Positions 14,451 through 64,000 of a stretch of DNA of 64,000 nt are shown here, one piece after another. How positions within the stretch are numbered: position 1 is the first letter of the stretch; every line of letters begins with the position of its first letter. A program made the position numbers and the translations under genes. The notes beneath the pieces were generated by a model. It saw only the letters and a program-made list of their open reading frames with translations. It was not told where the DNA came from and searched no databases. Source of the stretch: Marsupella aquatica (Eukaryota > Plantae > Marchantiophyta); NCBI GenBank assembly GCA_973895155.1, contig OZ316894.1:7154234-7218233 (forward strand), in the 5' to 3' direction.

Positions 14451-14665
14451 GTCTCGAAAGTTCTGTATATCTGAATAATCTGTTCAACCTAAACTCTAAT
14501 GACTCTAAAATCAGATAGTTACTCATAACTGGTTACCCAACTGTTGAATGTGTTGGCAGTTTTGAAACGATTCATCTAATCCATGTTAGTGGGCAGAGGA
14601 CCGGTGGTGTACTTAGGTAAACGAATCAAGATATTTCGCCATCAAACCTCAGCACAAGTATAATA

Positions 14666-15881: not shown

Positions 15882-15966
15882 CTTTGTGAATCAGGAAGTA
15901 GTGTATCATTCAAATGCATGCACCTTTGTGAATCAAGAAGTAGTGTTATCATTCAAATGCATGCAC
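15882..15966. repeat. Tandem duplication, ~42 bp x2
   Basis: CTTTGTGAATCARGAAGTAGTGT(T)ATCATTCAAATGCATGCAC twice. Confidence 0.85.
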
Positions 15967-19410: not shown

Positions 19411-20675
19411 TCAAAAGTGTGAATTGAGTTGTGTGACTCACAAAGAGCTGCACCATTGTCCAAGAAAGGCAAGAATAATCACAAAAGACACCCAAAAAAA
19501 TTGAAAAATTTCAACACAATGCAAGAGGATCAGTGTACGCGCCGGGATGAAAGAGGATACTCCCTCCATGATCCATGGAAGGAAGTGTTGTATGTATTCA
19601 ATACAAGTACATGTATTATACATATTGAATATTGTGTGCAACACATTTTTGTATAATACTGGTAAGAGGAGTTTAATTGCTAATATATTTTAGTCACTAG
19701 AGTATTGCATACACTAAATAATCAATAAAAAAATGTTCTCCCAATATTTGTAGTGATTTTTAGTCATTTGCACTGTCATTTTCAATGCCAAAAAACAAAA
19801 GCAATAAGACCCAAAGACATAGTGAAGTGCTTGGCATGGGCGTTGATGGCAAGGTGTCGGGCAAGGGGCACACTCGCAATGTAGGGCAACCCCTCAAAGG
19901 GCTCCAGTCCCGCATGGGTGGGGGCAGGGGGGCGGACGGCCAAAGAGGCGTAATGGTGAATGACAAAAAGAGAGACCAAAAAATAGGGAAAAGGGAGGTT
20001 AAGGTTTAGAAGGAACAAAAGAGAAAAAATGTTTTAAAAAATGAGAAAAAAATTAGAAAGAAAGCACCCTCTGATTGTGTTATACTTTTGTGGTTGTCAT
20101 AGCGAGTCTTTTGTGTAGTGACATCTTTTATTCAAGAATTGTTTTGTGCAAGGAGAAAAAAGAAAAAAAAGAAAATGGAACTTTTGTGACTGCCATAACC
20201 AGTATTTTACACAACGATATCTTTCACTCAACAAAAGTTTTTGTGCAGTAATATACTTTAACAATTGTTTTTTATTCAACGATATCTTTTGCACCACGAT
20301 CTATTTCTTAACAACATCTTTTATGTAACGCACAGGAAATGAAAGGATGGCGACAAAATTGTCATCTTTGCAAAACCCTAAACCTGAAACCAATAATATA
20401 ACGTTGCACCAATTTATAGAGTGGTCGTCATTCAAATGCATGGGCATTTTTGGTTAAAAACAAAACAAAACAAGAAAAAGACAAGGACAAGGACAAGGAC
20501 AAAGGAATAGGACCAAAAAAACCATGCCGGCCCTTGGATGCATCCGTGACAACAACATCAAGCCGCGAAAACCCTGACTCTTAGTCGACTTGCTCCTTAG
20601 ACTCTCCTTGACTTTTTACTTCACAACATTTCACATAACGACAACTTTGGTGAATATAATTTACTCTAGCTAGAT

Positions 20676-22935: not shown

Positions 22936-23442
22936 AGATGTCACTGTTTGATATAGACCTAAAATCAACTAGAGAACCTCAGTTTTGCATGGGGCTCATT
23001 GAGGGCTTCAAATGAATCCAAACATGACCATGTTTGGAATAGTACTAGCGCAGCAACGTCTGTTTTAAGTTTCAACATCTTCTATATTTTGATCATTCTT
23101 CTTGTTTTGCGCCTTACGTGGAACCTCCGACCAGCCCCCACCCCTCCAATATGCCCACACCTTGGCTCCAAGTCCTTGGGCTGCCTTGTGGCCTCCTTGT
23201 ACCCCCTCAATGGTTCCCTTGTCATCCATCATCGCCCGACACCCCTCACAACTCCGGCCTCCGGTTATCGCATCCATTTATTAGAACTAACAAAAATAAA
23301 AAATTTGAAAATCTAAAAACTTTTACTACACCTACTTGTCTTTCTACTTATATATGTAATTATAAGTCATCACTAAGTTACTACCGGGTTTGGGGCCCTG
23401 TCACAAAATGCCTTGTTGTTAGGGAACTCTCGGGGGTCTCAC

Positions 23443-24780
23443 TATATGGATGCAACACACTTCACCATATCCACAATATCATTCTCCGAAAATGGGACCT
23501 CATCATTTTCAGAGCCAAGCGCATTGAATCCATACGGAATGTTTGCAATCGCAAGTGTGTAATTCATTTTCTCTACAAACTTATCCAGCGCCCTAACATC
23601 TCCACAATGCAATGTATATCTGATGAAATTTCCATCAGCATTTTTCCACCGATGGTCACTCGACTATGCTTCAAACGTTTCTATCCCACGATGACGGTTG
23701 TAGTTCTCAATCGCCTCTTGAACATAATTCTTAAACCCTAGGGGAATAACACTCGAAGTCAGCTCCTTTGAAGGCTTCTCAACCACATCGGCACCAATTG
23801 CTTCTTTGTTCATCTTCTTCGAAAAGGCTTTCAACTGCAAACACAAACTTGTTAAAAGAATCCGGACAAAAGAAAATGGGGAGCCTAAACCATTTGCGCA
23901 TTCAAACAACGTAATCATGTTGGAAAGTAATCGAATCTTCAGGATGAATGCGACATGGGATATGCGGTATCCAAATTTGCATTCAAACAAGCAAAACCCA
24001 CATCAAAACCTCCCCAATGTCAAAACTCCACAAGTGAATCCAAAATGGGATACCCCGTATGGACCCACTTCACATTCAAACCTCAAATACCTAAAGAAAA
24101 CCTCCACAATGTTCAAAAACCCAAAGTGAATCCGAGATGGGATACCCCGTATCCCACTCCACATTCAAACAACAAATCCAGTAAGAAAACCTCCCAACAA
24201 AGCAAAATATGATATTGAATCCAAGATGGGATACAGACTGTGTATCCCTCTCTGGATTCAAACAACAATTACCGTCAGAAAACCCATACCATATCCTATT
24301 AGTCGATCATTTGAGAAACAAATAGGAAATTCCAATCAATGGAGGTGGAGAACATACCACATTGAACAACTTCCCACTCCATCTTTCGAGCTTGGCAAAT
24401 TCTGTTTCCTTCAAAAACATTTGTTTGCACGTCGCCTAGTCTGGTTCCCTGACAACTGAACAAAAAGCTTGCTGATTTTAACAAGTTTATTGTAACTCTC
24501 GGCTTCTTTTGCCATCTGCTCAAGAGATATCATCCGGTCCTTCACTCAGAGAAGAAGTGACTCCAAAAATGGTCGTGTTCAATTCCCGAGATTGCTCTCC
24601 AAGGTGTCGGGGTAAGGCCCCCTACGAGCTTATTCAAAGATTTCAGAATTGGCTGCGCTTTTCCCTTTCCTTTCTTGAGTTTCTTGATTGGCGACTTTTG
24701 CTTATTCTGCCCTTTGATCTCCAACCTATTCCACATATCAAAGATCTGGTCTTGGAGTTCCCAGACCTTACCTGACCTAA
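23443..24780 (-). pseudogene. Fragment of an intron-containing gene with the N-terminal half of a beta-class N4/N6 DNA methyltransferase-like domain
   Basis: Reading through the TAG at 23664-23666 gives 'YTLHCGDVRALDKFVEKMNYTLAIANIPYGF', matching the GD...(D/N)PPY layout; upstream exon has 'SLEQMAKE', similar to 'SIEELAKD' at ~62260. Confidence 0.65.
23945..24290. repeat. ~90-bp tandem repeat x4, probably intronic in the MTase-like fragment
   Basis: ATGGGATACCCCGTAT...CATTCAAAC...AAAACCTCC...GAATCC recurring at ~23955, 24045, 24137, 24226. Confidence 0.85.
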
Positions 24781-26608
24781 AGGTAATTTGGAAGAGAGGT
24801 TCATGCTTCTTCAGGCTTATGCTCGGGGGGGGGGGTCACTATATGGAGGGCCATACATCGCGTGCAACGTTTTAGGGTTTGATCCCCATAACTTATAAGT
24901 GAAATTGTTTTTTTTACAAAACCCTTTCTTTCTTTCAATTTTGTCATTTTTTACTAAAAAACCCCTAAAAACTTTAAAGAAAGTATTTTTTACAATTAAA
25001 TAAGCCTATGTGTTCTTTACAGTCAACCAGTCAATAAAACATGCCCTATGTGTTCTTCCACCAAACTTTAGAAGTCTTCCGCCACACCCATTTAAATGGG
25101 CCTATACTTCATCGCACGTGACCCCCGAGGGCTTATGGCATCCCCTGGAAAAAACCCATCGAGACACACCTCCAAGGCACACGCTTCTCTGGTCTCCTTG
25201 GTTTTTGCCATCATCAGACATTTCACTAATTCTGGAAAATTCTCCCAAGAATGGAACATTGAAAAGTGTTTTTTGGAAATTTAGAGAAGGGGTTTTGGAA
25301 TTTTTAAAACGAGGTTTTGGAATATTTAGTTTAGAGTTTTGGAATTTTCAGATTAGAGTTTTGGAATGAACACTAAGGGCACCATTGAAATTGAAATTTG
25401 AGTTTGGCAATTGAGGTCACCCATATTTGAATACTGAATAGCAAACCTGCGATGAGGAGTCCCATTACAACTTTATTGGGGACTGGTTGGGGCAAGGTAT
25501 GGGCTTGGAAAGGAGCAGCCCCTTAAGACCATTTTGTGAAGAATTGAAAATAAGATACAAGCCCCAACTTCTCTAATCACCCGATAGACCATTCACACTG
25601 TTAAAAAAATATCAAGAGGAAGGCCTCTGGGTTAGAAGCTTGGCCCAAAGAGGGGGGCCTTCTAGAGCCCGAGGATCGGATAGCCGCCGGATGCAAGGAA
25701 TCTGAGTTGAGCTTAGCTCTATCAAGGAACTTGTAATCAAGTCTACTTAATTGCTCGGTGAACTCTGGGATGAATATCGCACAATTTGTAGAAATGAAGG
25801 AGTATCGCACAATTTATAGAAATGACTTCAATGACAAAGTCGTGGCCCTACCGAATGCACAATGTTGGATGAGCCGGACACTGCAACCTCTATGCGACAA
25901 GAGGTGACACAAAAGAACGAGATACATGGGAGCTGAACGTACCATGCAAGTGATTGACAACGTGCATACAATTTTGCAAAGGATGCAAAATTGTTTTTAT
26001 TCTTCACAAAAATAGTTGATGTTGGAAGAGGCATCCCTCAAACCAACGCCATCGATGCCAAAACTAAATGAAATCTATTTCAAAACCTCCGATACAAAAC
26101 TATATTCAAAATCTATTGGGAATATGACTCAACCACAACTACTCACGGTAGTTGGCACAAAGATATGGGTAAGACAGTCGTGGAGGAGTAGAAGGACCTC
26201 AACATTCTACACGAGATTGGCGCAGAAAGAGATTTGGGTAAAATAAATTATCTATGATCACACAGTTGGAAGAGACATTCCTCCAACCAAGGCCCTGGTT
26301 CCCAAAAACCATTCAGATAAGGAAATCTCCTTCACAAGCTTAAAGTAGATAAAAATGTGAGCATACGCAATCTAAATTTTCCGGCGCCCAATATCTATGC
26401 GAGACTCGCATTATCCTCAAAATGCTTCAAAAACTTAAGACTCTCCCAAATGACTTCAAAACTTAATCGCGCCAAGAAGATGGCATCCACTCATCCGAGT
26501 TTGGAGTGGATGCGCAAGAGTCAAGGAATGCTAGAGATACTATAGTGTGAACCTCGACAGATAGTGTCTGTGGTTAGCAACTTAATTCAACAGTGCCCAA
26601 TTGCTAGC

Positions 26609-28420
26609 ATGTCTTACAATCCTGATTCTAGTTATGAACCTACGGAAAGACCCACCTACACCCGGTCTCAATATGAGCACCTTTTTTTTAGGGAGGATCT
26701 TCCTGAAGACTCTGATCCACCCTCAGATGGTGAAACTTATAGACCCGGGTACGCAACTCTTATATAATAGACAGGGGTCTACATTTTTATATGGACTAAA
26801 AAGTTGGCTATACAAAATAATTAAAATTTGAAAAAACCTGGGTTTCCCACTTTTAAAAATTTTCAAGTCATATAAAAGGTTTGGTTTCCTTCATTTTCCA
26901 TATGAAATTAAAAAATATTCCTATACATGTTGTAATTTTTATTAAAAGATTTTTAAAATTTTAATAAAAATCCTAAAAAGCTGGCTAGTTTGGTTGTAGA
27001 CCCCTATATTAAAAAAAACCCATATAATTTGGTTTTGATCAACTTTTTGTACATCAAAACATGTTTGGTTTTTTTTTTAAGTTACATTTTTGGATTCCTT
27101 GAGTTCAGAGGTACAAGACTTTAGTAGACTAAAATGAAATCTAAGATGGTCAATTGGATATAAGGCCATTATAAGGAATTAAAAACTTGCCTTATAAAAA
27201 GGGGAGTTGCATACCCGGGCTTATAGATCTTATGATAATTCTCTTGAGTCATCCCCAAGGCAAGGATTTGAAGATGTTGAAGCTGCATTACGGTCAAACC
27301 CAAATTTAGTGGCAGTGGTCACCTTGTCTACCCAAACCCCCAGGAATGCTACTATTGAAAGCAGGTACCCCAGACATCCTGAGTCACAAATGCACAGGTA
27401 TGTCACCACTTGCAAAATAATGCAGGCCAATCTCGGGGGTTTCATTTCCACAAAAATAGCATATCACGTGCGACGAAGGATAGGGTCATTTTATTGGTTC
27501 TAAGGGAAGACTTAAGAATTTTTGTAGAAGAACAATAGGGTCTTTTTAATTCAATTTTGAGACTTATAAGAACATTAGGGTCTTTTTAATCCAATTTTTA
27601 GAATATTCTGGAATATTCCAAGAATATTCCAACTTTATAGGGGTTAAAAAATAAATATTTTTTCTTACATTTTAGGGGGTCCGAGGCCTGAAAACGTCGC
27701 AGGTGATGGGAGGTCCCCATATAGTGAGACCCCTGAGAGGCCAATAGACCACCGGTTGGAGAACTTTGGAGATACTACTATCTGAAGAAGACTGAGGCAA
27801 GCTACATCTTTGATCTTAGGTGTCTTGGTACTTCTAGAGTGGAGATGGCACAATTTGATGAGTTTTGGACTGACTCTATCTACTTCCGACCCATACTGGC
27901 TATGATGCTGCTACAAGGTGATGTGAAGGTGGAGGATCCTGATTTAGTCCTAATATATTTTGGGAACTTTGCAGCTTATGCTCTGGATTTTATAATCTCT
28001 TTCCTTATGCAAAGTAAGAAGTCTACTCCTCTTCAGAATGATTACATTCCACAAAAGCCCAAGGTTGTACTCGTTTCGACCAATACCTTAGCTGATAAAC
28101 AGAGGATATGGAATAATGTTACCTCTCAGACTCTTACAGAATTCAACCGATACTTCAAAGATCATGTTATTTGGAGGTTTCATCCATTCTATTCTAGAAT
28201 GATGAGAACTGAAGATTTCCTATTCCATTACCCTCAAGTTTATGCTGCTACCTGCAATCACTATGATGTGATTGGAATTTACCGAGAGGCACTTCGTATA
28301 GATTCATGTTACTTAATGAAGAGAATGCCTCTTATGTATCCTGTGAGACAACTAAGATGCCTACCCTATTCTCGAGGATCACCGCATCAAGCAGAACTTA
28401 TGGAAGTCACTCAAGCTTGA
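26609..28420 (+). pseudogene. Possible three-exon gene of unknown function, probably degenerate TE cargo
   Basis: ATG 26609; donor GG|GTACGC ~26749 and acceptor cttatag ~27226 join in frame (RPG/SYDN); the last ORF (27839-28420) extends upstream to a TGA; no domain recognised. Confidence 0.35.
26773..27005. repeat. AT-rich segment bounded by 11-bp inverted repeats (MITE-like)
   Basis: AGGGGTCTACA at 26773-26783 and TGTAGACCCCT at 26995-27005; no clear TSD. Confidence 0.4.
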
Positions 28421-30026
28421 ATTGTTACCCTTGTGGAGCTTCTCAAACCAAATGATATTCGACAACAGACCATAAGAAGAGTCTAAGTCCTTTTTAGTTA
28501 GTTGTTTTTAGAGTAGTGTATCTTTTCCAGTTTTTCTAAATATGTTATAAAGCTTTAGAAACTATGAAACTTATCTAGTGCATAGTCTGTACCTAGGAGA
28601 ACCCACTGATTAATTTTCATAGCTTTCTGAGCTAGGAGTAGAAAGTTAAAAATAGTTGAATTTGGTAAGTCTTTAAGTCTACCATGTTTATCGGATTACG
28701 GGTTACGCTTTACGGCTTAAGACTTTACGACTTTATGGTTTTACGGGTTAGAACTTTTTACGAGTTTACGGGTTCTTACTTAGCCATTTTCTGGCACTCC
28801 ACTTACTGAATTGTTGTTTTAACTTTTGGAGGGGTATGAAGAGGGATGTCTCTTCGACCCTATGACCTCTCACTCTGTAGATTTTTACTATAAGACCCCT
28901 CTACCACTAGTGTAATTTATGGTTAAGTTATGCATTTTTGCCTCTTCCTTGTTTTAAACCCATTGATCATGAATCTATGAGTTCAAGATCAGGTTTAACA
29001 ATAGGAGAGTCTTACCTCCTTCTTGTGTTTGCACTTCTGTTTATAAACACAGGAAGTAAAACCCATTTGTGCAAAATCTTTGGATGTTGTAATGACAGAT
29101 TCCTCTTTGGTGACTCATTGCGATTTCCTAAGTTCTTAAAGTTAACTCATTGAGCTTTAAGTCTTATTGAAATTGATGGATTTTCTTTCATGTTGCTTAG
29201 TACCATCTAAATGTTGAAGTAGTCACCCTTTTAGATCTTGTCTGAGTACCACTTAGAAAGAAAAGACAAGACGTGTCGACGACACTTTAAAAGAGTACTC
29301 TAATAAGCACATTAGATCTGAAAAGCAATATGGATTTGAATCCTTAAGTCTTTTCATTTTGACTTATGTCTAAGGAGCAACCTTGGTCAATTTCAAACTC
29401 CCTTAGCATACTTTAAGATATTTTCCCTTGTGTTTTGTTAATCATTTCCTTTTCATTAATTTATGGTTATACAATGCTGAGTTACCATTAAAAACTACTC
29501 ACCGCTGTGGAGCGATCTTCAAAATACCATAGTAAAGTAATCAAACTTGAGTACTAACTATGTGTAGAAAACATCTTAAGTCTATTATTGTTGTTTAAAT
29601 CTATCAAACCAACCCCATCTTGTTCTTTACGGGAACGAATACCGAGTTTGACGACCTTTAAGTGTGTTTTTGGTTCTTCATAGCAAACTACATGCAAAGC
29701 CATTTCCTTTGCAAATACCATCAAAAATTAGAATTATGTTTTAATTTTCAAAGCACCCGCTTTCACACGACCTTAAAAAAATAGAGCCCGAGAGCATTTT
29801 TGCGAGAGAGCAAAGGTGTTGCGAAGCCCTTTGCTTCGCAATGGTTTTGCAAACTTGAGATACTACATGCAAAACAAAAAGGATTGCAAATTGCAAAGCG
29901 GATTGCTTTGCAAATCTTTCCCGCTTGTACATTAGCAATCGGCCGCCGCGTACTCAACGCCATTTCACAAGTTTCAAGCGTAGGGAGGGAGAAGGGAGCT
30001 CGCGCACGCTTGGGGGTGGCTTAGCT

Positions 30027-30567
30027 ATGGATTCCAGTGGAGCCAATGGAGGTGATGGGGCAGGGGTGAGTGACAGTGGCAATGGGAATGAAGGCAATGG
30101 GGAGCAGGAGAGGAATCGATGGACTGATTTGATGGCTGAGCACCTCAATGCAACACAGTTGAGCCGCTTAGATTTGACTACACCAGCAGGGATTGCTTCT
30201 TTGAGTGCAATCCTAGGGCAAGCCTTGAAAACGGGAGTAGCTACAGGGAATGTTGCAAGGGAGGAGAGCAAAGGAGTGCAGCTCAATAGAAGGCAAGAGA
30301 GAAGAAGCGTAAGAAGAAGGAGAGGGCCAAGGCAGAAGTAGTCTCACCTGCTGCCCTAGAAAAGAAGAGGAGGAGAGAGGAACAAGATGAGAGAAGAGCG
30401 TGCAGCGGGAGGAGCAGCGAAAGGAGGAAGAGAGGAAGAAGTTGCCTATGATTGCCTTGATTGAAGGCATTCCTACTGAACTGGCCTACACCGGGGCAAA
30501 GAGCACTATCAGGCTTATGGTGCGCTCCAATTTTGCACGAGGAGTTGAGTGGGGGAAACTCAGCAAG
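30027..30567 (+). pseudogene. 5' part of a frameshifted, probably TE-associated gene interrupted by element A
   Basis: MDSSGANGGDG..., a Lys/Arg/Glu-rich stretch, then 'IRLMVRSNFARGVEWGKLSK' cut exactly at the LTR; preceded by clustered TTGCAA motifs at 29690-29940. Confidence 0.45.
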
Positions 30568-33500
30568 TGTGGTGCGTCCCATGGCTCCCTAAACCCAAGA
30601 AACCCCCCAGCTCAAGCCGATTCCCGCAGGTTTCGCGCTTGGTGAGGCTGTTTCCGCGGCTTAGCGGCATGGGACGCTGCTAACCTCCTCCTACTCTTAC
30701 TATTAGTCTTTTACCCACATATACTGGACAGATCCTTCATCGGGTCATGAGATACGTAGCCGGCCTAATCTAGGCCGTCCCTTGTCTTCCTCTCCTTCTG
30801 GTTAGGTATGTTTGGATTCCGCCGCCGGAATGATCCCCAATAGGCTTGGTTAAGCCGCTAAGACCTCTCTCAGCTCGACACATCCAACTCTCACTCCCTT
30901 GTTTACTTTCCTTCCTTCTGGTAGATGTGGGCACTCTTCACACAAGTTAATGCGACACACAAATAGCAAAATGACTCCTTCTGACTGAGTCATACCATGC
31001 ACTTGCCATACAAACAGTACATCTCATACACAAGTTCTGCGAACTAAGCCGTGAGGCCAACTCTATTCAGCTCTTAGGCATGAGAAAACATGAATATACA
31101 CAAGGTCACGGTATGACTAACCGAGAGCTTCTCTTACTACTTGATCCCATCCCGGCTGGTGCAACTAAAAACTTGCTAACGAAGAGGCCCTGAGCTCCCC
31201 GCTGCCCAGGTACTTATCCTAGTAGTGGATCCGCCTAATTCTTTGCAGCGTAAGCCTAATCTACCTAACAGTAATCTACCTGCCCGAAACTACCTATGTA
31301 CAGCAAGGCAGGAGCACAAGTGTTGCTCCTACCAGTGGAACCGCAATCCCACTAAGCTAAGTGTCAGGGCCGCTCCTGGTCCTGATCCTAATCCTAAACT
31401 TGGAGATCAGCGCCCGCCCTGCCCACTCACGCCTCCTACCTCCATGTCCGCCTTTCCTAAAAGGAACGGCGCCCTTGCACCGTCACGACACCGGTGGTGG
31501 ATCCTCAATGGACGCCCCCAATGCTTCCTCCGCAACCACTGCCGTTGGTCCATCCTCTGACAGATTACCTGCCTCTGACCGAGTCAACTTTTCGGCATGA
31601 CTGGGCCCACCCTCAGCTTCGGCATCGGCTCGGGAATCATTCTCGGCTACGGCCTCAGCCTCGGCTTCAGCCACTGTCTCCCCGGCTTGCTCAAGAGGTG
31701 GATCTCGGATACCGGCCTCATTATTGAGTAGTCTGGCTTGGGCCGCGCCATCCCCACCTTTGGTGATAGCGGAATCTATTGCCGTGCTCATGCCGGAGGT
31801 TGGTGTTGGGTCTACCTCCTTGGTCACCACGGCCAGTGGAGTCGTATTACTCCTTGACCCTGAAGGTTTCCGCTTCTTCTTCTTTTCTGGTTCGGCAACT
31901 GGTCCCTTCCCCTTCCCACTTACTTCCGTCACTGGTGCAGGTGGCGCGGCTTGTTCTTCGGCCAGTACCACTCCTGGTAACTTGGTTGCCCCAATTGGAG
32001 TTGGGCCTGATGAAGACAAGCACTTAAATACTGCGGCTTGTTTCTTCAGCCGCTCTGTTTGGTTGTCGGCCCGTCGCTGTAGGTTCTCCATCTTCCTCGT
32101 GAGTTCCTCCAACTCCTCCTGGGTCTCATCCAGGTCCCTGCGCGCCTCCTCTAGTTCCTTCTAGGCTTCCTCCCGTTCCCTGTGGGCTTCCTCCAGTTCT
32201 TTCTTCAAGGTAGCCCTCTCCTCCCGTGTTGCTCTTAGCTCCTTGTCGAGCTCCGCTACGACCTTAGACTCCATGTTATTCATCTTGGCATAAGTCTGGT
32301 CGAGCTGGGCGTCCTTCTCCCGCAGGTCGGCCTTGAAGCTGGCCGTCAGGGACGCAAGCTCCTGCTGTAGCGCAATAATCCCTTGATAGGATTTCCCTAA
32401 CTCGGCCTCCTTCTGCTCAAGGACTCCGCGGATTTTCTCGAGCTCCCCCTTCAATGCCCTCTCCCTTCTCTGAGTCTCCGCCGTGACCCGGTTGTTGACT
32501 GCTATATGGGCCTCTTCTGCGTTTCTCAGCTCCTTCCATTTCTCCCTGTCCTTGATTGCGTCGGCCAATTCTCCCTGGGTCTGAGTCAGTTTATCCTTGA
32601 TAATCTGATTATCAGCCTGCGCTGTGTCCAACTGCCCCTGTATGATGTTCAGCTCATGCCGCTTAATCCTCAGTTCATCTTGGGCTTTCTTGGCCGCCTT
32701 TAGATCTTCAATCTCGGCTTCCATCCTCCTAAGCCGCCGGATGACCTCATCCTTCTTGCTTCTCTCTAAAGCCACCGCTTCTTCTAATTGGTTCTTCTCC
32801 AACTGCTCCCTATGGAAAAAGGGTCCTACCTCCAACTCCTCCCCAAAGATGCCGAGCGCAAGTTCCCCACACATCTCACCATACTCCATGGCTCTATTCT
32901 TAGCATAGGTGGAGTAAGTAGAAGTGATCGGCATCGCCCATCGCGGCCTCTGCTCCCAAGCCGTCTTGCGGATCTCTTCAATCGTGGCTAGAGGTTTGCT
33001 TCCTTTTTTGGCTAGGCGCCTGATGTCCTCTGGCCAATCTCCTCCTGGCAAATCCTTTTCCCTGGCCAGGGCTGCCTTCTCTTCCTGCCTGATTCGCTCC
33101 TGAAATTCCTGCGCCGTCTGTTTTATGCCGTCAAAGCTCGGGGGAGCAACATCTGGTGGGGGAGACTCAGGGCTACTCTGCTGGTTGGGGTCCCCTCGTA
33201 CTACCCTTGGAAGTGTGGGGATAAACCGGCCACAGGTCCTTACTCCTGGAACGTGATGGTCCGACCCATAGCCGGAGTTATCATGGCTGCAGTCCTCCAC
33301 TGCCTCCTCTACTTCTTGGACTTCCGGCTTCTCCCTCTCTTCTTCGTCGGTAGGAGCTTCAGGCAATTCTACCTCAGATTCAGAGCTTGAGACTCCCACG
33401 TACATTCAAACACCTGGCTTGGATTCTGGCCTGATTCTGCTTAGGTTGACCTCTGGGGCAGTGTCCTGCATTGTTGCCGTTGCCGTTGTCGTTGCCGATG

Positions 33501-44808: not shown

Positions 44809-47800
44809 TGTGGTGCGTCCCATGGCTCCCTAAACCCAAGAAACCCCCCAGCTCAAGCCGATTCCCGCAGGTTTCGTGCTTGGCGAGGCCGTTTCCGCGG
44901 CTTAGCGGCATGGGACGCTGCTAACCTTCTACTACTACTATTAATATTTTACACACATATACTGGATAGATCCTTCATCGGGTCATGAGATACGTAGCCG
45001 GCCTAATATAGGCCTTCCCCTGTCTTCCCCTCCGTCTTGTTAGGTATGTTTGGATTCCGCCGCCGGAATGATCCCCAATAGGCTTGGTTAAGCCGCTAAG
45101 ACCTCTCTCAGCTCGACACATCCAACTCTCACTCCCCTGCTTACTTTCCTTCCTTCTGTTGATGTGGGCACTCTTCACACAAGTTAATGCGACACACAAA
45201 TAGCAAAATGACTCATTCTGACTGAGTCATACCATGCACTTGCCATACAAACAGTACATCTCATACACAAGTTCTGCGAACTAAGCCGTGAGGCCAACTC
45301 TATTCAGCTCTTAGGCATGAGGAAACATGAATATACACGAGGGTCACTGTATGACTAACCGAGAGCTTCTCGTACTACTTGATCCCAGCCCGGCTGGTGC
45401 AAACTAAAAACTTGCTAAAGAAGAGGCCCTGAGCTCCCCGCTACCCAGGTACTTATCCTGGTAGTGGATCCGCCATTCTTTGCATCGTAAGCCTAATCTA
45501 CCTGACAGTAATCTACTTGCCCGAATCTACCTATGTACAGCAAGGCAGGAGCTCAAGTGTTGCCCCTACCAGTGGAACCGCAATCCCACTAAGCTAAGTG
45601 TCAGGGCCGCTCCTGGTCCTGATCCTAATCCTAAACTTGGAGATCCGTGCCCGCCCTGCCCACTCACGCCTCCTCCCTCCACGTCCGCCCTCCCTAAAAG
45701 GAACGGCGCCCTTGCACCGTCACGACACCGGTGGTGGATCCTCAATGGACGCCCCCAACACTTCCTCCTCAGCCACTGCCGTTGGCCCGCCTACTGACAG
45801 ATTACCTGCCCTTGACCGAGTCAACTCTCCATCGGCCTGACTGGGTCCACCTTCGGCTTCAGCCTTGACACCGGCCTCGGCAATACCCACGGCTTCGGCC
45901 TCAGCCACTCCCACGGCTTCGGCCTCCCCTTCCCCTAGGGTAGTTGGATCCTTAGCCGTGACCCTGTCTGGGGTCGGTGTTGGGTCTACCTCCTTGATCA
46001 CCACGGCCTGTGAAGTCGTATTACTCCTTGACCCTGAAGGTTTCCGCTTCTTCTTCGTTGGTGGCTCGGCAGCTGGTCCCTTCCCCTTCCCACTTACTTC
46101 CGGCACTGGTGCAGGTGGCGCGGCTTGTCCTTCGGCAATTACCACCCCTGGTAACTGGTTTGTCCCAACGGGAGATGGACCTGCTGCAGCTAAGCATTTA
46201 AATACTGCGGCTTGTTTCTTCAGCCGCTCTGTTTGGTTGTCGGCCCGCCGCTGTAGGTTCTCCATCTTCCTCGTGATTTCCTCCAACTCCTCTTGGGTTT
46301 CATCCAGGTCCTTACGTGCCCCCTCCAGCTCATTTTTGGCCTCCTCCTGCTCCCTGTGGGCTTCCTCCAATTCCTTCTTCAAGGTAGCCCTCTCCTCCTG
46401 GGTTGCTCTTAGCTCCTTGTCGAGCTCTGCAATGATGACAGACTCCATCTGGTTCATCTTGGCGTAAGTCTGTTCGAGCATCTCGTCCTTCTCCCTTAGG
46501 TCGGCCTTGAAGCTGGCCGTCAGGGACGCAAGCTCCTGCTGCAGCGCCATAATCCCTTGATAGGATTTCCCTAACTCGACCTCCTTCTGCTCAAGGGCTC
46601 CGCGGATTTTCTCGAGCTCCCCTTTCAACGCCCATTCCTTTCTTTGGGTCTCCGCCATGGCCCGACTGTTGGCTGTTATGTGGGCCTCCTCTGTATTCTT
46701 CAGCTCTTGCTTCCACTTCTCCCTCTCTTTGATCGTGTCGGCCAACTCTTCCTGCGTCTGAGTCAGTTTATCCTTAATATTCTGATTATCAGCCTGCGCG
46801 GTGTCCAACTGCCCCTGCATGATGTTCAGCTCATGTCGTTTAATCCGCAGTTCATCTTGGGCTTTCTTGGCCGCCCTTAGATCTTCAATCTCGGCTTCCA
46901 TCCTCCTAAGCCGCCGAATGACCTCGTCCTTCTTGCTTCTCTCTAAAGCCACCGCTTCTTCTAATTGGTGTTTCTCCAACTGCTCCCAATGGAAAAAGGG
47001 TCCTACCTCCAACTCCTCTCCAAAGATGCCGAGCGCAAGTTCCCCACACATCTCACCATACTCCATGGCTCTATTCTTAGCGTAGGTGGAGTAAGTAGAA
47101 GTGATCGGCATCGCCCATCGTGGCCTCTGCTCCCAAGCCGTCCTGCGGATCTCTTCAATCGTGGCTAGAGGTTTGCTTCCTTTTTCGGCTAGCCGCCTGA
47201 TGTCCTCCGGCCAATCTCCTCCTGGTAAATCCTTTTCCTTAGCCAGGGCGGCCTCTTCCTCCTGCTTGATTCGCTCCTGAAATTCCTGCACCGTCTGTTT
47301 TATGCCGTCGAAGCTCGGGGGAGCAACATCTGGTGGGGGAGACTCAGGGCTACTCTGCTGGTTGGGGTCCCCTCGCACTACCCTTGGAAGTGTGGGGACA
47401 AACCGGCCACAGGTCCTTACTCCTGGAACGTGATGGTCCGACCCATAGCCGGAATTATCATGGCTGCAGTCCTCCACTGCCTCCTCTACCTCTTGGACGT
47501 CCGGCTTCTCCCTCTCCTCTTCGTCGGTAGGAGCTTCAGGCAATTCTGCCTCAGATTCGGAGCTTGAGGTTCCCACGTACATTCGAACACCTGGCTTGGA
47601 TTCCGGCCTGATTCTCTCCTTGTCTCCAGCAAAGGGGTTTTCTCTTGTGAGCCAGTGTAGGCCTACCTCTGTAGTAGTGTCCTGCATTGTTGCCGTTGCC
47701 GTTGTTGTTGCCGATGCCGATTTCTTTTCTTTCTCCAGTAGTTTCAGCAGACTCTGCATGCCTGGTTGCTGCATCGGCAAGTCTTCCTTCCTGGGCCTAA

Positions 47801-49434
47801 ACACCTGCTCGATCGTAGGACTAACAGGTGGTTGAGGCTTCTCAGCCAACGGCCTCGGTGTTGGAGCTTCCTCGGGTGCCCTTACCTGCAGGGGAAGTAC
47901 CGGGGCAAAAGTCTTACCTCTGGCATACCGGCACAACAGCGGCATGTGATAGCCAAGCCGCGACACGCTCCCCATGCCGATTACCTGCTGCTCCTCCTTT
48001 AAGATCTTCTTCAATTGGTTGAGGAGGTACCCGTTGTAGTCCCGGCTTGGGTCTGGCCTTTCTGCCAGATAGACCTGTGCCTTGCCGATCTCTGCCCGCG
48101 GCAAGTTACAATGCATGGTCACCCGCAAGAAGTCGATCATCTCTCCTATGTGCGGGTTGGTGCAGGTGTTCCGGAAGAAGCCATTCTTCGTTGATGGCCC
48201 GGGGAACGACCGGAACTCCTTGTCAGGCAAGGTCTTCCTGGTATCAACTTTGGTCTTATTGCCTATCGGCAGGCCAAACACTTCGGCAATTACCTTGGGA
48301 GTAAGATAGAAATCCCTCCCATATATCCTCGTGCAATTGGTCTCGGGTTCCCATGACCCCACGAATTCTAATAGGTCTGACTCCGGTACCTCCGGCTTCA
48401 GCCATGGTAATCTTACAAAGGCCTCCAAGCCGGATCCGGCCATGAAGCCTTGGTACTTCTTGGTCTGCATGGCCGTAAAGCATGCATCCTCCTCCCGTGC
48501 AAAATGTAGTTGCACCTCCACCGGTAGGGTTGCCGCCCAGCCCTTCCAGGTGTCATCCCTGGTTGGAATGGCCTTGATGGGATCGACCTCCTCCTCTTCG
48601 GCTTCTCCCTGCCTCCTGCTCTGCTGCTCGGCTGGCCTCTTTGGTGCCGCCGACCTCGTTCTTTTTGCCGGGGTGGCTTCATCATTGATGGCTCCCTTCC
48701 TCTTCATCTCTGCTGCCGTGGAGGTTTCTCCTAGCACCGTTGCCTGGGTCCACCTTTCCGTGCTACCCTTTAATTCCCAGTGTATGTCGTTGCAGTTCTT
48801 GATGGCCTCTCGGATGCCGACGACGCTGTCTTTGCAAAACAGAAGATCGTCGAGTTGATTGGAAGTAGGCGTCCACAGGAACTCGTCCTTGATGAGTTTG
48901 CCTCCTAAGAAAGCCGTCTTCTGCAGCTCCCACAATCGAGCGAGCTCCTGCCGTTCTCGAGCTGCCCTTTCTGACTCCTCGTCCTCGTAAGTCTTGATGT
49001 ACTCAGTTGCCCGTTCGAATAGGCATCCCCAGAAATGTGCCGCTTGATTGACGTTGCTCATACCCTCCTTAGGTCGATCGTCGGTATCTACTCTCTCCCC
49101 GAGTGCTTGCCTAAGCAGCTGACAGTAGTTGGCCTCCCGTAGTCGTCTGCCTAGTTCGTGCTCGCAAATGAGCCACCATCTCCTGCAAGCGCTCCTTACC
49201 CCTCTCCTCTGCCGGTCCTTCTTCCCGTTGATCCTTCCTAGCCGCCGACGCTTAACGCGCCCTAACCCTAATCGGGTTTTCACCCTTAGCCTTACCTCCG
49301 GCCTCGGCCCGGGTTCCATGGTTGCCCCTAATTGTTTATATTTTCCTTGTTTTGTCCCTATACTAAGGTGTTCCTAGGGTGCCTTCCTGCTTTACCCACT
49401 TAACCGGCCGAGTGATTCCTGTCTAGGCATCACA
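44809..49434 (-). repeat. Element B 3' LTR, 4626 bp
   Basis: PPT at 49435-49447; TSD at the left edge; matches 55660-58370 apart from a deletion. Confidence 0.95.
45720..49319 (-). CDS. Intact 1199-aa extra ORF wholly inside the LTR: basic N-terminus, plant-mobile-domain-like motif, acidic/Pro linker, long coiled coil, NLS-like KKKRK
   Basis: Open frame with ACCATGG start 115 nt inside the LTR; 'LLEFVGSWEPETNCTRIYGRDFYLTPKVIAEVFGLPIG' resembles the PMD W-x-PET...T-x-x-x-V...GLPI motif; E/K/L heptad region ~46200-46990. Confidence 0.9.
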   Translation of the reverse strand: MEPGPRPEVRLRVKTRLGLGRVKRRRLGRINGKKDRQRRGVRSACRRWWLICEHELGRRLREANYCQLLRQALGERVDTDDRPKEGMSNVNQAAHFWGCLFERATEYIKTYEDEESERAARERQELARLWELQKTAFLGGKLIKDEFLWTPTSNQLDDLLFCKDSVVGIREAIKNCNDIHWELKGSTERWTQATVLGETSTAAEMKRKGAINDEATPAKRTRSAAPKRPAEQQSRRQGEAEEEEVDPIKAIPTRDDTWKGWAATLPVEVQLHFAREEDACFTAMQTKKYQGFMAGSGLEAFVRLPWLKPEVPESDLLEFVGSWEPETNCTRIYGRDFYLTPKVIAEVFGLPIGNKTKVDTRKTLPDKEFRSFPGPSTKNGFFRNTCTNPHIGEMIDFLRVTMHCNLPRAEIGKAQVYLAERPDPSRDYNGYLLNQLKKILKEEQQVIGMGSVSRLGYHMPLLCRYARGKTFAPVLPLQVRAPEEAPTPRPLAEKPQPPVSPTIEQVFRPRKEDLPMQQPGMQSLLKLLEKEKKSASATTTATATMQDTTTEVGLHWLTRENPFAGDKERIRPESKPGVRMYVGTSSSESEAELPEAPTDEEEREKPDVQEVEEAVEDCSHDNSGYGSDHHVPGVRTCGRFVPTLPRVVRGDPNQQSSPESPPPDVAPPSFDGIKQTVQEFQERIKQEEEAALAKEKDLPGGDWPEDIRRLAEKGSKPLATIEEIRRTAWEQRPRWAMPITSTYSTYAKNRAMEYGEMCGELALGIFGEELEVGPFFHWEQLEKHQLEEAVALERSKKDEVIRRLRRMEAEIEDLRAAKKAQDELRIKRHELNIMQGQLDTAQADNQNIKDKLTQTQEELADTIKEREKWKQELKNTEEAHITANSRAMAETQRKEWALKGELEKIRGALEQKEVELGKSYQGIMALQQELASLTASFKADLREKDEMLEQTYAKMNQMESVIIAELDKELRATQEERATLKKELEEAHREQEEAKNELEGARKDLDETQEELEEITRKMENLQRRADNQTERLKKQAAVFKCLAAAGPSPVGTNQLPGVVIAEGQAAPPAPVPEVSGKGKGPAAEPPTKKKRKPSGSRSNTTSQAVVIKEVDPTPTPDRVTAKDPTTLGEGEAEAVGVAEAEAVGIAEAGVKAEAEGGPSQADGELTRSRAGNLSVGGPTAVAEEEVLGASIEDPPPVS

Positions 49435-58370: not shown

Positions 58371-59067
58371 GCAGGTGTTCCGGAAGAAGCCATTCTTCGT
58401 TGATGGCCCGGGGAACGACCGGAACTCCTTGTCAGGCAAGGTCTTCCTGGTATCAACTTTGGTCTTATTACCTATCGGCAAGCCAAACACTTCGGCAATC
58501 ACCTTGGGAGTAAGATAGAAATCCTTCCCATATATCCTCGTGCAATTGGTCTGAATCCGGTACCTCCGGCTTCAGCCATGGTAATCAGTCTTGAAATGTA
58601 CACTTTTATGTCCCCAAATGTACACTTTTTGATACCTAAATGTACACTTTATAGGCCAAATCTTATTAGTATTATATTAATATATTATATTATATTATAT
58701 TATATTATATTAATTATAATAGTATTATATTACTTATTAGTTCACAAAGAACCATGGGATAGAGATCATACTTGTAAAAACATTTCCGCACAAAGAAGCC
58801 CAGGCAAGGACCATTGATTGATAATGTGTGAAAATAATTATATACAATTGTGTCCAAACTTACAATGAATATCCAGGGCTGGCACCCATTTTACTATCTA
58901 ATGGGCTTAACATGAGTCAGATCTCTAAACAAAGTGCTTCTTACAATATTTATTTGAGCACGTGCCTTTGTCTCCTTTACTATCTACCCTAATGTCACGG
59001 TTGCAACTCCCTTTATCTTCAGGGAGATGAAATTTGGTGGTGTTGTTCCTAACTGCTATAATCTCCC

Positions 59068-59960
59068 TCAAAAAGTGTCTGGGATTTCTCTATACAGACC
59101 TGAATATTCCCGTCCTACAAATGATCTAGCAAGTGAGATGACAAGTGCATTGTCAAGTTCCACCTCAGGACGTAAGCTACATATACGGTGCTTCACAGCC
59201 CAAGGAATCTCATTGCTATTGAGGTCCAACACACTATGCCTATACTGTGACTTCCAAATTTTTGCTACACATCTCTTACTAAGTTGATCATAAGTAATCT
59301 CATTTTTTGCCTTGTCTCTCTTAATGTGCAATAGAGACCACTTTGGAGAGTTTAGGAGAAGATAACAATGAATGTCACTTGCATGTGACAGTTTCTCAAG
59401 ACATGGCCAAAGAATTGTTAGAAGAAAATTGTCTCCACGATTGGCATGCGTGTAGGGCACTGGAAATAGTCCGGTCATGTCTGGGTTGGCAAATGCCTTC
59501 AAGGGGGAGTCATCCACAAGGAGTGTGTTGGTTTCATCATATAAATTTCCAAATGCACTCCATACCACCCGAAAATCCTTCAATAGCACATTTGCCTTTC
59601 CATTTGTAATGTCACGCCTTTGAATGCCTGTGTCAAAGGCTTCCACCTGTGTGAATACAAACTTCAGTTTCAACCGCTCCTCAATTGTGAACATCATGTT
59701 CAACATTTTCACTGTTCGCGGCATCCCAGCACATGTCCAAATTGCAACGTCAAACCGGTCAAAACCAACTTTAGAAACTCATGGAGCCCTGGCCTCTCTG
59801 TATACATGCGACTAGTTCCATTTGATCTATCCCAATGCACTCCACTTGAGGTGACAATATTCCTGGATGTGCCCTTGCTTTGGAATTCAATAGAATCCCA
59901 AAGTATTTTATTAAGGTCCAAAATCAGCAACTTCCGCTTGACGGGACCAGGTCTCGATTC
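59068..59960 (-). pseudogene. FCP1/NIF-like HAD phosphatase domain, frameshifted near 59760
   Basis: 'KRKLLILDLNKIL', 'ERPGLHEFL', 'VAIWTC', 'LLKDFRVVW', 'YDETNTLLVDDSPLKAFANP'. Confidence 0.85.
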
Positions 59961-62606
59961 TGCAAGTGCACCAAACACCATTCTCAGAGAAAAGATCAAA
60001 AGTGAACTTTGGATTAGGATTGTCTCAGTCCAAAAATACAAGACAGTGGCTTAAAGAAAATTAACCTACATACCATTTTTAGAACCCTCACAATGTGTAG
60101 ACGGATATGGAGACTTTAATTGGTGAGCGCATTCTGTGAGACCGAGAAGTATTTTAGATTGATATGAATAAATACAAAGTCAAAGGCTGAATTTCATTCC
60201 GAAATAAGAGATCCGTATTCATCAATAATCATGTCAGCACCAAGCTCCTGTTGGATTTCAAAATTGACATCTGAAGTACTTTGTTCTACCCAATAAGGTG
60301 AAGTCCAAACAGGAGTTATCAACCCCAATTCTCCACTCTTATACTCCTCCTTATTGAGAATTGAAGGAGCAGCATCCAATGATATTTCTTGGCCTCGATT
60401 TGGCCCACTTTTCCACACGTAACATCATGCGTCGCATTCCAATGACCTCCATCCAATTGATCCAACTCTATTTCCTTTCTTTTTTGAGAGTGGAAGGACA
60501 ATAGGACTCCCCGAGTGTGAATGAACGAACACCAATTTGTCATCAGAAGCTGAAAAGAGTGTGTCAGGACAAGTTGAAGCACCTGCCTGGTTGTCAACAG
60601 CCGTTGATGCATTTCCTCCTGGATTGATCGGAATGTCAGGCAATCCGCCAGTCTCCCCCTCGATCTCCCCCCGAGTCAATTCTTTAGTTTCAGCTTCATT
60701 TGAATCTCCAAGCCTCGTTGCGCCTTCATTGATCAGATTGGTTGAAGAAAGATGATCAAACGTATCAACCCTTGCTCCTTCCAGTTGCTCCATCTGTCCT
60801 CCCGGCGTTGTTGGATTGGGATCATCCTTGTCCAAGTTATCATCAACTTGAACTTCATTGGGCCCCGGAGGGATGTCATCTAAACCAGATGAACGGTTTG
60901 GTGCAAGTCCAATATCATCATCTACATCGTAAGGCTCACCTTGACCAACACGGTCATCCAAATTCTTGACATATGCCTCCTTTGATGCCTCTACGCCTTC
61001 AGCCACTTTGTCAGCAACATCTTCAGACTCAGAACCATCGGATTCAACAGCGACAGCTACAGCCGCAACAGTGGTAGCCCATTGTCAAGAATTTTCAGCA
61101 AGTGATTCACAATGAGCTTTAAGTGAGGGAACTCTCTCGCAAAGGTAGGAAGCAAAAGCTTCCACAAAATGCCTCTCGGAGTGAGAGTCACAATAAACAA
61201 AGCATTCCCTATCGCAAAAAAATGATGTCTTCATGACTTGGCCACCGGAGAAAAAATCTAGAACCAAATCTCCCGGTTCTGACAAGGATTCAATAATCCT
61301 TTGGATCATCCGCGTGGGTTTGGCATGAGGATTAACTCACCCTCCGCGACTGCCAGCTGTCTCAAATCGAGGGGCCATATTCATAATCTTGACGGCCTCT
61401 TCCGGGTCCAAAACCACTTTTAGGTCGTCATTTTGTGTCCCCTCATCTGATTCCTTAGCCTTCCCCTTTCCCTTGTCGATCTTGCATACTTCGTAATCAA
61501 CATCCTTTGCAGTATACAAGAATTTTGGCTTTGGATACTTGGGCTTGAAAACTTCATTCCAATTGATGTCTTCATCTCGAGAAATCCCCGCAAAGATAAC
61601 TTCTTCAATCCCCCCACCCCAACATGAGTCATGAGGGTGCGGTTGATCATCTCGAGAATAACTCCCATACTCAATGTGAATGGTCAAAGCTTTCTCTTGT
61701 CCCAGTTTACGAAGGGCACCATGGACATTCAATGCAAGTTGTCCAGGATGAACTGTTATCGTCACAACAATCGTGGGATTTTGTGGAAGCTCCACAATGT
61801 ATTCAAAGAGAACAAGAATCTCTGCTTCAGTCCATTGTTTTTGCGGAAGCCGGCTAAAATCAACAATGGCAAGAGGGCAGGTCGGAGGAGCTTCTTGCAA
61901 TGACTCTGGATCAATGGTCTTCATGAGATTGTCGCTAAAAAATGTAGCCCATGGTAGGGTCCGAGAATGTGATCCTCTGCCAAATTTCTGGCAGTATATA
62001 TCATCTAGGCGGAATGCCAATACCGTCGGCAAGATTGCGCTCTCCCGTGTATGATTTGGTTTTAAAAGGTTGGCAAGATAGACCTCGCCAGCGGCTCTTC
62101 AACACCTGCTGAACTCTGAATCAATTGCTAGCGTAGGAGGAACCTCCACTACTTTCCCCCAATTAGTATTTGTCGGGAAATTCACCGCATCCTTGGTGCA
62201 ATAGTAGTCTTCAATAAGGGACTTCAGTTTCCGCACGATCTTCACATCTTTGGCCAACTCCTCTATAGATGGCATGTCTGATTTATTAGAGGCATCTTTC
62301 TCACCATCAAAACAACCATCAACTCACCATCAAAACAACGAAACATGGCAACAGTAATTGCTTTTTCAGACTTCTCATTTCCTTCTACCCCAGCTCCATC
62401 GGGAAGTTTCCCATCCAACCACAATTGGCATACCAAACTCCATAACTCAAAAAGAGCATCGTCCGCAAACAGTAACCAGTAAACATTTTGACAATCTTTC
62501 CTTCCCATGGTCATTCTTGCAAGAGCCAACCAATCCTACAATTGCAAAGGAAAGTCTGTTAGTTCTCCATAACTCAATTGTTTGATAGCACTCAGGTGCG
62601 GATTGA

Positions 62607-62992
62607 GACCATCCCAGTCCAACACAGAACTAGACAGTATCAGTGGAAATATTCTATTGAATGTGCATGATTTAGTTTGGACTGGGACCATCCCAGTCCA
62701 GAACAAAACTAGACAGTATCAGTGGAAAAATAATCTATTGAATGTGTATGAATCCATTTGGACTGGGACCATCCAGTCCAACGCAAAACTAGGCGATATC
62801 AGTGGAAATATTCTACTGAATGTGCATGAATCCATTTGGATTGGGACCATCCCAGTCCAACACAAAACTAGACGATATCAATGGACAAAGATTCTACTGA
62901 ATGTGCATGAATCCATTTGGACTGGGACCATCCCAGTCCAACGCAAAACTAGGCCATATCAGTGGAAATATTCTACTGAATGTGCATGAATC
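62607..62992. repeat. ~80-bp tandem repeat x5 inside an intron
   Basis: GACCATCCCAGTCC anchors at 62607, 62686, 62767, 62845, 62926. Confidence 0.92.
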
Positions 62993-63759
62993 TACGGTAT
63001 TGTACCCATCAAGCAGTAACACTTCGTACCTGAAATTTTTGATTGTCTTGAGCGTTTGTTTTGTTGTCCCCATGTTTTGGCCGGCTAGGTCTTCCACAAT
63101 CCACAAATTGTCGCCTAGCATGAACGACTATATCTTTGAAGCATGACTGAAACACCATCGTGCTATTGATCGCATTAGATCACATTGAATGCTCAACTAA
63201 TATTGACGATGGTGTTTGATGAGATAATATTCTTGACTTTCAAAATTCCAGCTTTTTCGCCAATGCTGTCAGCTTGGCATCCTTGTTTGCCCATTCTCGA
63301 ATCCATCTGGCTACTCTAGCCAAATGTTGACCGCTAATGGCAAGGAATTGAACCTTGCCCTTTTTCACGGCTGCTACAAAGTCCCTCCTATCTGATTCTG
63401 TGTTGTCATACTGCATTAGGTTTCTATGTTTTGTAGTGTAAGGAATCAAGTCTGCTATGTGTGGTTCATGCCCCAGATTTCTTATCATGGAATTGGCCAC
63501 CTCCTTTACATGGTCTGCATTCAACATTCTTTAACAGAGTCTTGCCGACGCAGGGAAAATACTGTCTATAGGAATAAAAAATATTGAATTGATCCCAAAC
63601 GTATAATATTGCTCCATTTGTTGCAATACCTCATTACCTTCTAAGACCTTCTTCTCCTCAGGAGCGTCCAACTGCTCGTCCACATCTTGTGAATGCACTG
63701 TTAGGTTTTCTGTAGTGTCATCCATGATGGCACTGTCAATTTTCTGCTTCTTCTTCTAT

Positions 63760-63925
63760 CTTGGTCTCTTTTCACTTGCACTCGGCTTCTCAACCGAACG
63801 TTTCTTCTCAACTAGCTTCTCAACTTGGCTTCTCGTACTCGGCTTCTCAACTGGCTTCTCAACTAGCTTCTCAACTCGGCTTCTCGTACTCGGCTTCTCA
63901 ACCGGAAGTTTCTTCTCAACCGGAG
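63760..63925 (-). repeat. Coding tandem repeat (GTTGAGAAG; VEKP/VEKL/STRS units)
   Basis: Repeated CTTCTCAAC on the plus strand, in frame with the ParB-like ORF. Confidence 0.8.
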
Positions 63926-64000
63926 GTTTCCTTTGGCTTTGTTTTCATTTTCCCACTGCTCCTTGAGAGGTCGCTGCTGTAGTTCCCGCGGTCTCTGTTG

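What the first reader, a model, noticed from the sequence alone, without database searches (positions are those of the whole stretch)
60194..64000. Eukaryotic intron-containing ParB-like / amino-DNA-methyltransferase-like fusion gene
Seen: after reading through single stops, mostly compatible with C>T decay, one protein carries 'IPIDSIFP...HVKEVANSM...FLAISGQH' and 'NPHAKP..MIQRIIESLSEPGDLVLDFFSGG', with GT-AG introns. Established: ParB/Srx domains have a G-x-H-R core; beta-class N4C/N6A MTases end in HPTQKP...PGD-x-VLDPF-x-GSG; ParB-MTase fusions are typical of phages and prokaryotic mobile elements; bacterial-derived 4mC MTases were co-opted in Marchantia and bdelloid rotifers. Inference: cargo of a large, possibly undescribed plant DNA transposon that marks or binds its own DNA. 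The presumed catalytic position reads 'LAIVDFSR' rather than DPPY, so this subfamily may be a catalytically dead DNA binder.
Basis: partly seen in the sequence, partly recalled or inferred. Interest (0 to 1): 0.86.

Follow-up and report, generated by a model that had tools for sequence, protein, structure and literature searches.

The report
Decayed plant ParB–pseudomethylase transposon gene
This is a broken copy of a many-copy plant gene that joins a bacterial-type ParB domain to a DNA-methylase-shaped domain lacking its catalytic motif; it is likely a DNA-binding helper gene of giant transposons, a kind so far described in algae.

Summary
On the minus strand a pseudogene (9 internal stops, one deletion frameshift, one GT-AG intron) encodes a ParB/Srx-fold domain, a helical linker, a beta-class amino-methyltransferase fold, an acidic tail and a small unknown domain; its 5' end lies beyond the window. 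Intact relatives exist, and the named ones are from liverworts (Calypogeia, Riccia). A confident model of one relative matches CcrM/PvuII/RsrI (Z 16-18) and, more weakly, six ParB/Srx-type proteins (Z 5-7). The catalytic loss is family-wide, not decay: 0 of 56 rows keep (D/N/S)PP(Y/F/W), motif I is shortened, and ParB lacks its GxxR arginine (0 of 21). Read depth is about 100-400 times that of nearby low-copy DNA. A NIF/FCP1-like phosphatase gene lies downstream and is fused to the methylase-like domain in some relatives. The intron holds an 81-bp tandem array carrying a 9+3+9 palindrome. No transposase or terminus was found, so transposon residence is inferred. ParB-methylase accessory genes are already reported from giant algal transposons (Ectocarpus Sola1-1). 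This is a new, probably non-methylating land-plant variant.

The parts
63030..64000 (-). Exon A (open at the window end): Lys/Glu-rich low-complexity stretch, then the ParB/Srx-fold domain (about 63680-63075; SGQHL at 63335-63321); 5 in-frame stops
   Evidence: fold from the relative's model
62536..63029 (-). GT-AG intron, 494 bp, phase 0, position shared with relatives
   Evidence: donor, acceptor, spliced relative P0051
62600..62992 (.). 81-bp tandem array (4.9 copies) inside the intron; units carry a 9+3+9 inverted repeat (perfect in 2 of 5 units); candidate binding sites (inferred)
61961..62535 (-). Exon B, helical linker domain; deletion frameshift near 62320; stop at 62101
61130..61960 (-). 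Exon B, beta-class amino-methyltransferase-fold domain; motif IV reads DFSR (61861-61850), motif I reads DFFSGG (61258-61241); stop at 61339
60194..61129 (-). Exon B, acidic disordered tail and a conserved C-terminal domain of no known family (about 60589-60200); stops at 61087 and 60427; terminal TGA 60196-60194
59071..60050 (-). NIF/FCP1-like HAD phosphatase gene, same strand, about 150 bp downstream; frameshift near 59760; motif I reads DLNK
   Evidence: Pfam NIF E 2e-6; 37-41% identity to the NIF parts of P0082, P0133, P0150; table 4
58587..58650 (.). Three 22-bp repeats beside the junction with Ty3 LTR-retrotransposon sequence; possible subterminal array; other copies continue with different sequence before 58583
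   Evidence: (table 7)

Best explanation
This is a pseudogene copy of a multicopy plant gene family that fuses a ParB/Srx-fold domain to a beta-class DNA methyltransferase fold without its catalytic motif, and intact members likely act as non-methylating DNA-binding accessory proteins of giant DNA transposons. Shown: gene structure, both folds (in a predicted model of an intact relative), family-wide motif loss, high copy depth, linkage to a NIF phosphatase. Inferred mechanism: the ParB and helical part dimerises and recognises the element, possibly at palindromic arrays such as the one in its own intron; the pseudo-methylase serves as a second DNA- or protein-binding module; the protein helps the element assemble its transposition complex or resist silencing, with the NIF phosphatase as a co-carried regulator. 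This copy was inactivated, largely by C>T changes, and cut off on one side by nested Ty3 elements. Odds for the steps: fusion and folds 0.95; transposon-borne 0.8; no methyl transfer 0.75; binds its own palindromes 0.3.
For: Folds: model of P0171 from a 45-row alignment, mean pLDDT 76.9, 518 of 1009 residues at 90 or more. Residues 463-737 match CcrM Z 17.9 (rmsd 3.6, 221 aligned), RsrI 16.1, PvuII 15.8, rotifer N4CMT 15.5. Residues about 56-284 match PadC Z 7.3 (rmsd 3.2, 97 aligned), KorB 6.7, SerK 6.6, Pnob8 ParB 6.4, sulfiredoxin 5.7, SbnI 5.7. The best viral match is a phage ParB/Srx protein of 494 aa, E 8.5e-9 over 711 columns. Motifs: global profile alignment puts the family's AIVD-F on bacterial LIYIDPPF; 0 of 56 rows have (D/N/S)PP(Y/F/W) and 52 of 56 keep only the Asp; motif I is one residue short; an acidic residue sits at the motif II position in 2 of 61 rows; the residue after ParB GQH is Arg in 0 of 21. 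The domain stays conserved at 16-48% identity across 30 members. Copy number: median summed contig depth over the gene 22,270 vs 145 over low-copy DNA in run X2, 10,424 vs 25 in X1, 228 vs about 2 in X6 (my medians of table 2). 183 clusters at 50% identity. 5 of 10 proteins looked up are Riccia sorocarpa models on contigs of three different lengths. NIF is fused in 3 of 41 relatives scanned. Precedent: PMC12477816 and the Bostrychia preprint.
Against: No transposase, terminal repeat or target-site duplication was found; six-frame Pfam of 19400-30600 and 58400-60200 gave none, 1-19400 was not scanned that way (one search failed), and no flanks of relatives could be fetched. ParB matches are all under Z 8, the range the tool calls ambiguous, and no Pfam, PHROG or NCBIfam ParB model hits; a profile comparison with one bacterial ParB-methylase gave nothing. 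Summed contig depth is not a true copy number. The motif IV Asp, motif X Lys (65 of 68) and F-S-G-G are strongly kept, which a non-canonical enzyme would also show. The local profile alignment covers only the C-terminal half; motif IV placement rests on the global alignment and the structural overlap. Palindromic units occur in 22 of 5000 shuffles of one unit, and nothing links the protein to them.
Confidence: 0.6

Rival explanations
1. Intact members are active, non-canonical amino-methyltransferases (or need an active partner, as METTL14 does) that put 4mC or 6mA on their own element.
For: Whole beta-class fold kept; Asp of motif IV in 52 of 56, Lys of motif X in 65 of 68, FSGG conserved. 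Two short fragments among the hits (P0160, P0165) keep a full-length motif I and acidic motif II. The Ectocarpus protein is predicted to make 4mC or 6mA.
Against: 0 of 56 rows keep PP(Y/F/W); the three residues after Asp vary freely (DFSR, DLTH, DTTS, DATT); motif I loop shortened; motif II acidic residue in 2 of 61. The Tyr and Pro of motif IV contact the target base in solved enzymes (PMC10406627).
Confidence: 0.17
2. The gene pair is a relic of an endogenous large DNA virus or virus-like element rather than a cut-and-paste transposon.
For: Structural neighbours include phage ParB-methylases and Pandoravirus methylases; NIF phosphatases occur in large DNA viruses (recalled).
Against: No relative in IMG/VR by either domain (the three weak hits cover 40 residues of an unrelated ORF), none in 50,697 phage records; spliceosomal intron; no viral hallmark gene in the scanned part of the window.
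Confidence: 0.08
3. A host gene family gained by horizontal transfer and spread passively (duplication or capture in non-autonomous elements), with a chromatin role for the host.
For: Liverworts have domesticated a bacterial 4mC methylase (Marchantia preprint); no transposase was seen here; the family is old and diverse.
Against: About 100-400-fold depth with many 80-95% identical variants; repeat-rich setting; this copy is decayed; many named models are fragmentary.
Confidence: 0.12

Closest known systems
ParB-like plus N4C/N6A methyltransferase accessory protein of the Ectocarpus Sola1-1_Ec32 transposon (PMC12477816; passages and supplement rows read)
   Same: Same two domains, similar length (1104 aa vs 1009-1219 aa here), eukaryotic repeat context
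   Different: Here a land-plant lineage, catalytic motif lost across the family, NIF gene attached, transposase not seen.
Plavaka (EnSpm) accessory genes PAG2 and PAG3 of Bostrychia (bioRxiv 2025.02.11.637652; passages read)
   Same: PF01555 methylase and ParB-like domain on one element; tandem arrays of inverted repeats next to the ParB gene
   Different: There the domains are in separate genes, fused to SET and 2OG-oxygenase; here they are fused to each other and the array lies in the intron.
Phage and prophage ParB plus N6_N4_Mtase fusions (PMC4738411 passages; locus L022)
   Same: Domain order ParB then beta-class methylase; best structural neighbours
   Different: Those keep DPPY and the GHxR arginine (L022); this family has neither, and has introns and a longer helical linker.
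Marchantia DN4MT1 and rotifer N4CMT (bioRxiv 2021.02.12.428880 and PMC10406627 passages)
   Same: Bacterial-type beta-class fold in a eukaryote; N4CMT matches at Z 15.5
   Different: They are active host enzymes with SPPY; no ParB is mentioned in the Marchantia text; not high-copy.

Membership tests
Beta-class N4C/N6A DNA methyltransferases (PF01555) | Permuted fold, motif IV region before motif I | tested here: met
   Z 15-18 over residues 463-737 of the relative's model; Pfam hit above cut-off on the window
Beta-class N4C/N6A DNA methyltransferases (PF01555) | Catalytic (D/N/S)PP(Y/F/W) motif IV | tested here: not met
   0 of 56 rows; window DFSR
Beta-class N4C/N6A DNA methyltransferases (PF01555) | SAM-binding motif I F-x-G-x-G and acidic motif II | tested here: not met
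   Loop one residue short; full form in 3 of 175 fetched proteins, one of them a bacterial-type methylase; acidic motif II in 2 of 61
Beta-class N4C/N6A DNA methyltransferases (PF01555) | Methyl transfer to DNA | not testable with these tools
   needs an assay
ParB/Sulfiredoxin superfamily | ParB/Srx fold | tested here: met
   Six different superfamily members at Z 5.2-7.3 on one region and several ParB-named viral models at E 8.5e-9 to 8e-3; each Z alone is under the tool's bar of 8, and sequence models do not hit
ParB/Sulfiredoxin superfamily | G-x-(H/x)-R nucleotide-binding arginine (motif recalled) | tested here: not met
   SGQHS in 16 of 21, Arg in 0 of 21
ParB CTPase clamps | CTP binding, palindrome (parS) loading, sliding | not testable with these tools
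   A palindromic array is present but binding is untested
Accessory genes of giant DNA transposons (Sola-1, EnSpm/Plavaka, MuDR, KDZ) | Linked transposase, terminal repeats and target-site duplication | tested here: inconclusive
   None in the scanned parts of the window; element is cut at 58586 and runs past 64000; no genome held
Accessory genes of giant DNA transposons (Sola-1, EnSpm/Plavaka, MuDR, KDZ) | Many dispersed copies | tested here: met
   Depth ratio about 100-400; Riccia models on at least three large contigs
Accessory genes of giant DNA transposons (Sola-1, EnSpm/Plavaka, MuDR, KDZ) | Homology to the algal ParB-methylase proteins | not tested
   Sequences not found in the paper text or its five held supplements
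NIF/FCP1-like HAD phosphatases (PF03031) | NIF domain with DxD nucleophile motif | tested here: inconclusive
   Pfam above cut-off; motif reads DLNK in the window and DVEG in three relatives, so activity is open

The most novel reading that the evidence does not exclude
Early land plants carry giant transposons with a eukaryotic parS-like self-recognition system: a ParB-pseudomethylase binds palindromic arrays inside its own intron and, with a co-carried FCP1-like phosphatase, shields the element from silencing or loads its transposase, having given up methylation and canonical CTP binding.
Probability: 0.22. Interest if true: 0.82.

Novelty: new variant of a known kind. Interest (0 to 1): 0.47.

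Why it matters
It would extend ParB-methylase transposon accessory genes from algae to land plants and show that a large, old branch (183 clusters) kept the methylase fold after losing its catalytic motif, which argues against the published idea that such proteins work by methylating their own element. Intact single-ORF members and a candidate binding array make that idea directly testable. Standard domain scans miss the family (no Pfam hit at E 0.1 on P0171 or P0173), so it is probably under-annotated in plant genomes.

Tried and rejected
Folding the ParB part alone from 11 rows gave pLDDT 43.5 and an uninformative fold search. Alignment A4 misplaced the ParB fragments and was dropped for A5. 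No true relative with flanking DNA in metagenome, viral or GTDB contigs; the 63 loci are ordinary prokaryotic methylases. No RNA holder listed. No phage match. The C-terminal domain has no Pfam or PDB sequence match and was not folded alone. The idea of a second intron near 62320 was rejected. An Atlas link of the ParB part to fungal DUF3723 (score 0.91, 151-152 shared features, below the 170 level) is a lead only. A second methylase-like relic at 23445-24830 seen by eye was not supported statistically. No complex was predicted. Literature searches for a land-plant report found none; most subscription journals are not searched, and Iyer 2011 is not held, so it is cited only through PMC12477816. 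Supplements of the bioRxiv papers were not seen; Bostrychia Supplemental Table 6 may bear on homology.

Full report
Observation. The minus strand of 60194-64000 holds one decayed gene. Exon A (64000-63030, open at the window end) and exon B (62535-60194) are separated by a 494-bp GT-AG intron. There are 9 internal stops and a deletion frameshift near 62320. Pfam N6_N4_Mtase hits the motif X/I part at E 2.2e-7. Of 5 stops that align to conserved columns, 4 fit C>T or G>A; at 61339 other copies read a Trp codon in all 4 runs laid. CpG observed/expected is 0.60-0.66 in the exons and 0.39 in the NIF gene against 0.77-0.81 in the left part of the window.

Relatives. A search with exon B gave 2 proteins of 3423 candidates, with exon A 10 of 578, and a profile search 183 clusters at 50% identity, of which the best 150 were listed. 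Named members are from liverworts: Calypogeia fissa (57% identity in the ParB part) and Riccia sorocarpa (5 of 10 proteins looked up, on contigs of three lengths). The host of the window was not identified; a plant near these lineages is an inference. P0171 and P0173 are intact single ORFs with the full architecture; P0051 reads across the window's splice junction.

Folds. P0171 folded from a 45-row alignment has mean pLDDT 76.9. Residues 463-737 match beta-class methylases at Z 14-18 (CcrM 17.9, rmsd 3.6, 221 aligned; Foldseek E 1e-6); by sequence the profile finds M.RsrI at E 8e-9. The N-terminal part matches six ParB/Srx-type chains at Z 5.2-7.3, each under the tool's bar but all on one region, and ParB-named viral models, the best at E 8.5e-9. 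No sequence model for ParB hits. A small C-terminal domain is conserved and confidently modelled but has no match.

Catalytic state. A global profile alignment with 23 prokaryotic methylases places the family's AIVD-F on LIYIDPPF and shows motif I one residue short and Ser at the acidic motif II position. From 175 fetched proteins, after dropping 6 near-duplicates, 0 of 56 rows covering motif IV have (D/N/S)PP(Y/F/W) and 52 keep the Asp; ParB reads SGQHS in 16 of 21 with no Arg; motif II is acidic in 2 of 61. The loss spans all branches of a 30-member tree at 16-48% identity, so it is not decay of this copy. In solved enzymes the Pro and Tyr of motif IV hold the target base (PMC10406627 passages). 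I infer no methyl transfer (0.75); the kept Asp, Lys and FSGG leave a non-canonical activity open.

Context. Summed contig depth over the gene is about 100-400 times that over low-copy DNA at 10700-16035 in three runs (medians 22,270 vs 145; 10,424 vs 25; 228 vs about 2). The tool warns this is not a copy number; it does show a repeat family. A NIF/FCP1-like gene follows about 150 bp downstream, 37-41% identical to NIF domains fused to the methylase-like domain in 3 of 41 relatives scanned, one a Riccia gene model; such fusions could be gene-model artefacts, but they still show linkage. The intron holds 4.9 copies of an 81-bp unit with a 9+3+9 inverted repeat; 22 of 5000 shuffles of one unit give such a palindrome. 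To the left, three 22-bp repeats abut a rearranged cluster of Ty3 elements at 30568-58586. No transposase was found in six frames of 19400-30600 or 58400-60200; 1-19400 was not scanned in that way, the element runs past 64000, and no genome is held.

What is known. PMC12477816 (passages; supplement rows) describes a 1104-aa ParB-like plus N4C/N6A methylase gene in the 21.5-kb Sola1-1_Ec32 transposon and cites similar proteins in green and red algae. The Bostrychia preprint (passages) has Plavaka elements with a PF01555 gene, a ParB gene and inverted-repeat arrays beside it. PMC4738411 (passages) derives some eukaryotic methylases from phage ParB-terminase loci and notes inactive methylases in DIRS elements. 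The 2026 DAM-retrotransposon preprint (abstract, part 1 of 5 and a term search) does not mention ParB, Riccia or Marchantia. The Marchantia preprint (passages) concerns SPPY enzymes. PMC11735767 (passages) does not discuss the family in the passages seen. Nine searches found no land-plant report. Unchecked notes of this scan describe similar decayed genes in other plants, an animal and a dinoflagellate, which pointed me to the Ectocarpus passage.

Verdict. A real pseudogene of a large, under-annotated family. It works most likely as a transposon accessory DNA binder (0.6 overall). It has the folds of a beta-class methylase and of ParB but fails their catalytic motifs, and membership of a transposon superfamily is unproven. 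New variant of a known kind; interest 0.47.

Noticed in passing
window 23445-24830 (-): Possible second, distant methylase-like relic: a helical-linker-like piece (24829-24365), a 89-92-bp tandem array with 8+3+8 palindromes (23945-24284), then a piece with LHCGD...LAIANIPY, cut near 23445. Support is weak: linker P 0.05; 3 of 60 and 75 of 1000 shuffles score as well; no library hit.
   Followed up: partly
window 30568-58586: Two related Ty3-type LTR retrotransposons in tandem on the minus strand with very long repeats (3.4 kb, 98.9% identical) that hold a long extra coiled-coil ORF (45723-49373, 1217 aa); the right end is rearranged.
   Followed up: partly
window 27737-28417 (+): 227-codon ORF in high-depth repeat DNA with no Pfam or PHROG match.
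   Followed up: partly
window 17586-19410: Degenerate tandem array with 165-237-bp units.
   Followed up: no
window 3043-4392 (-) and 11299-11757 (-): Low-copy host-like ORFs (450 aa helical; 153 aa with a signal-peptide-like start) with no significant Pfam hit.
   Followed up: no
proteins P0160, P0165: Short relatives that keep a full-length motif I and acidic motif II; possibly an active sister group.
   Followed up: no
proteins P0009, P0010, P0013, P0017, P0018: A conserved domain of about 200 residues with no Pfam match lies N-terminal to the ParB part; in this copy it would be beyond 64000.
   Followed up: no
protein P0007: Language-model neighbours are fungal DUF3723 clusters (score 0.91); DUF3723 is recalled as a Starship accessory gene, so a ParB-like fold there is worth testing.
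   Followed up: no
L022:8678-10288: A metagenomic ParB plus methylase fusion with intact DGHNR and DPPY.
   Followed up: partly
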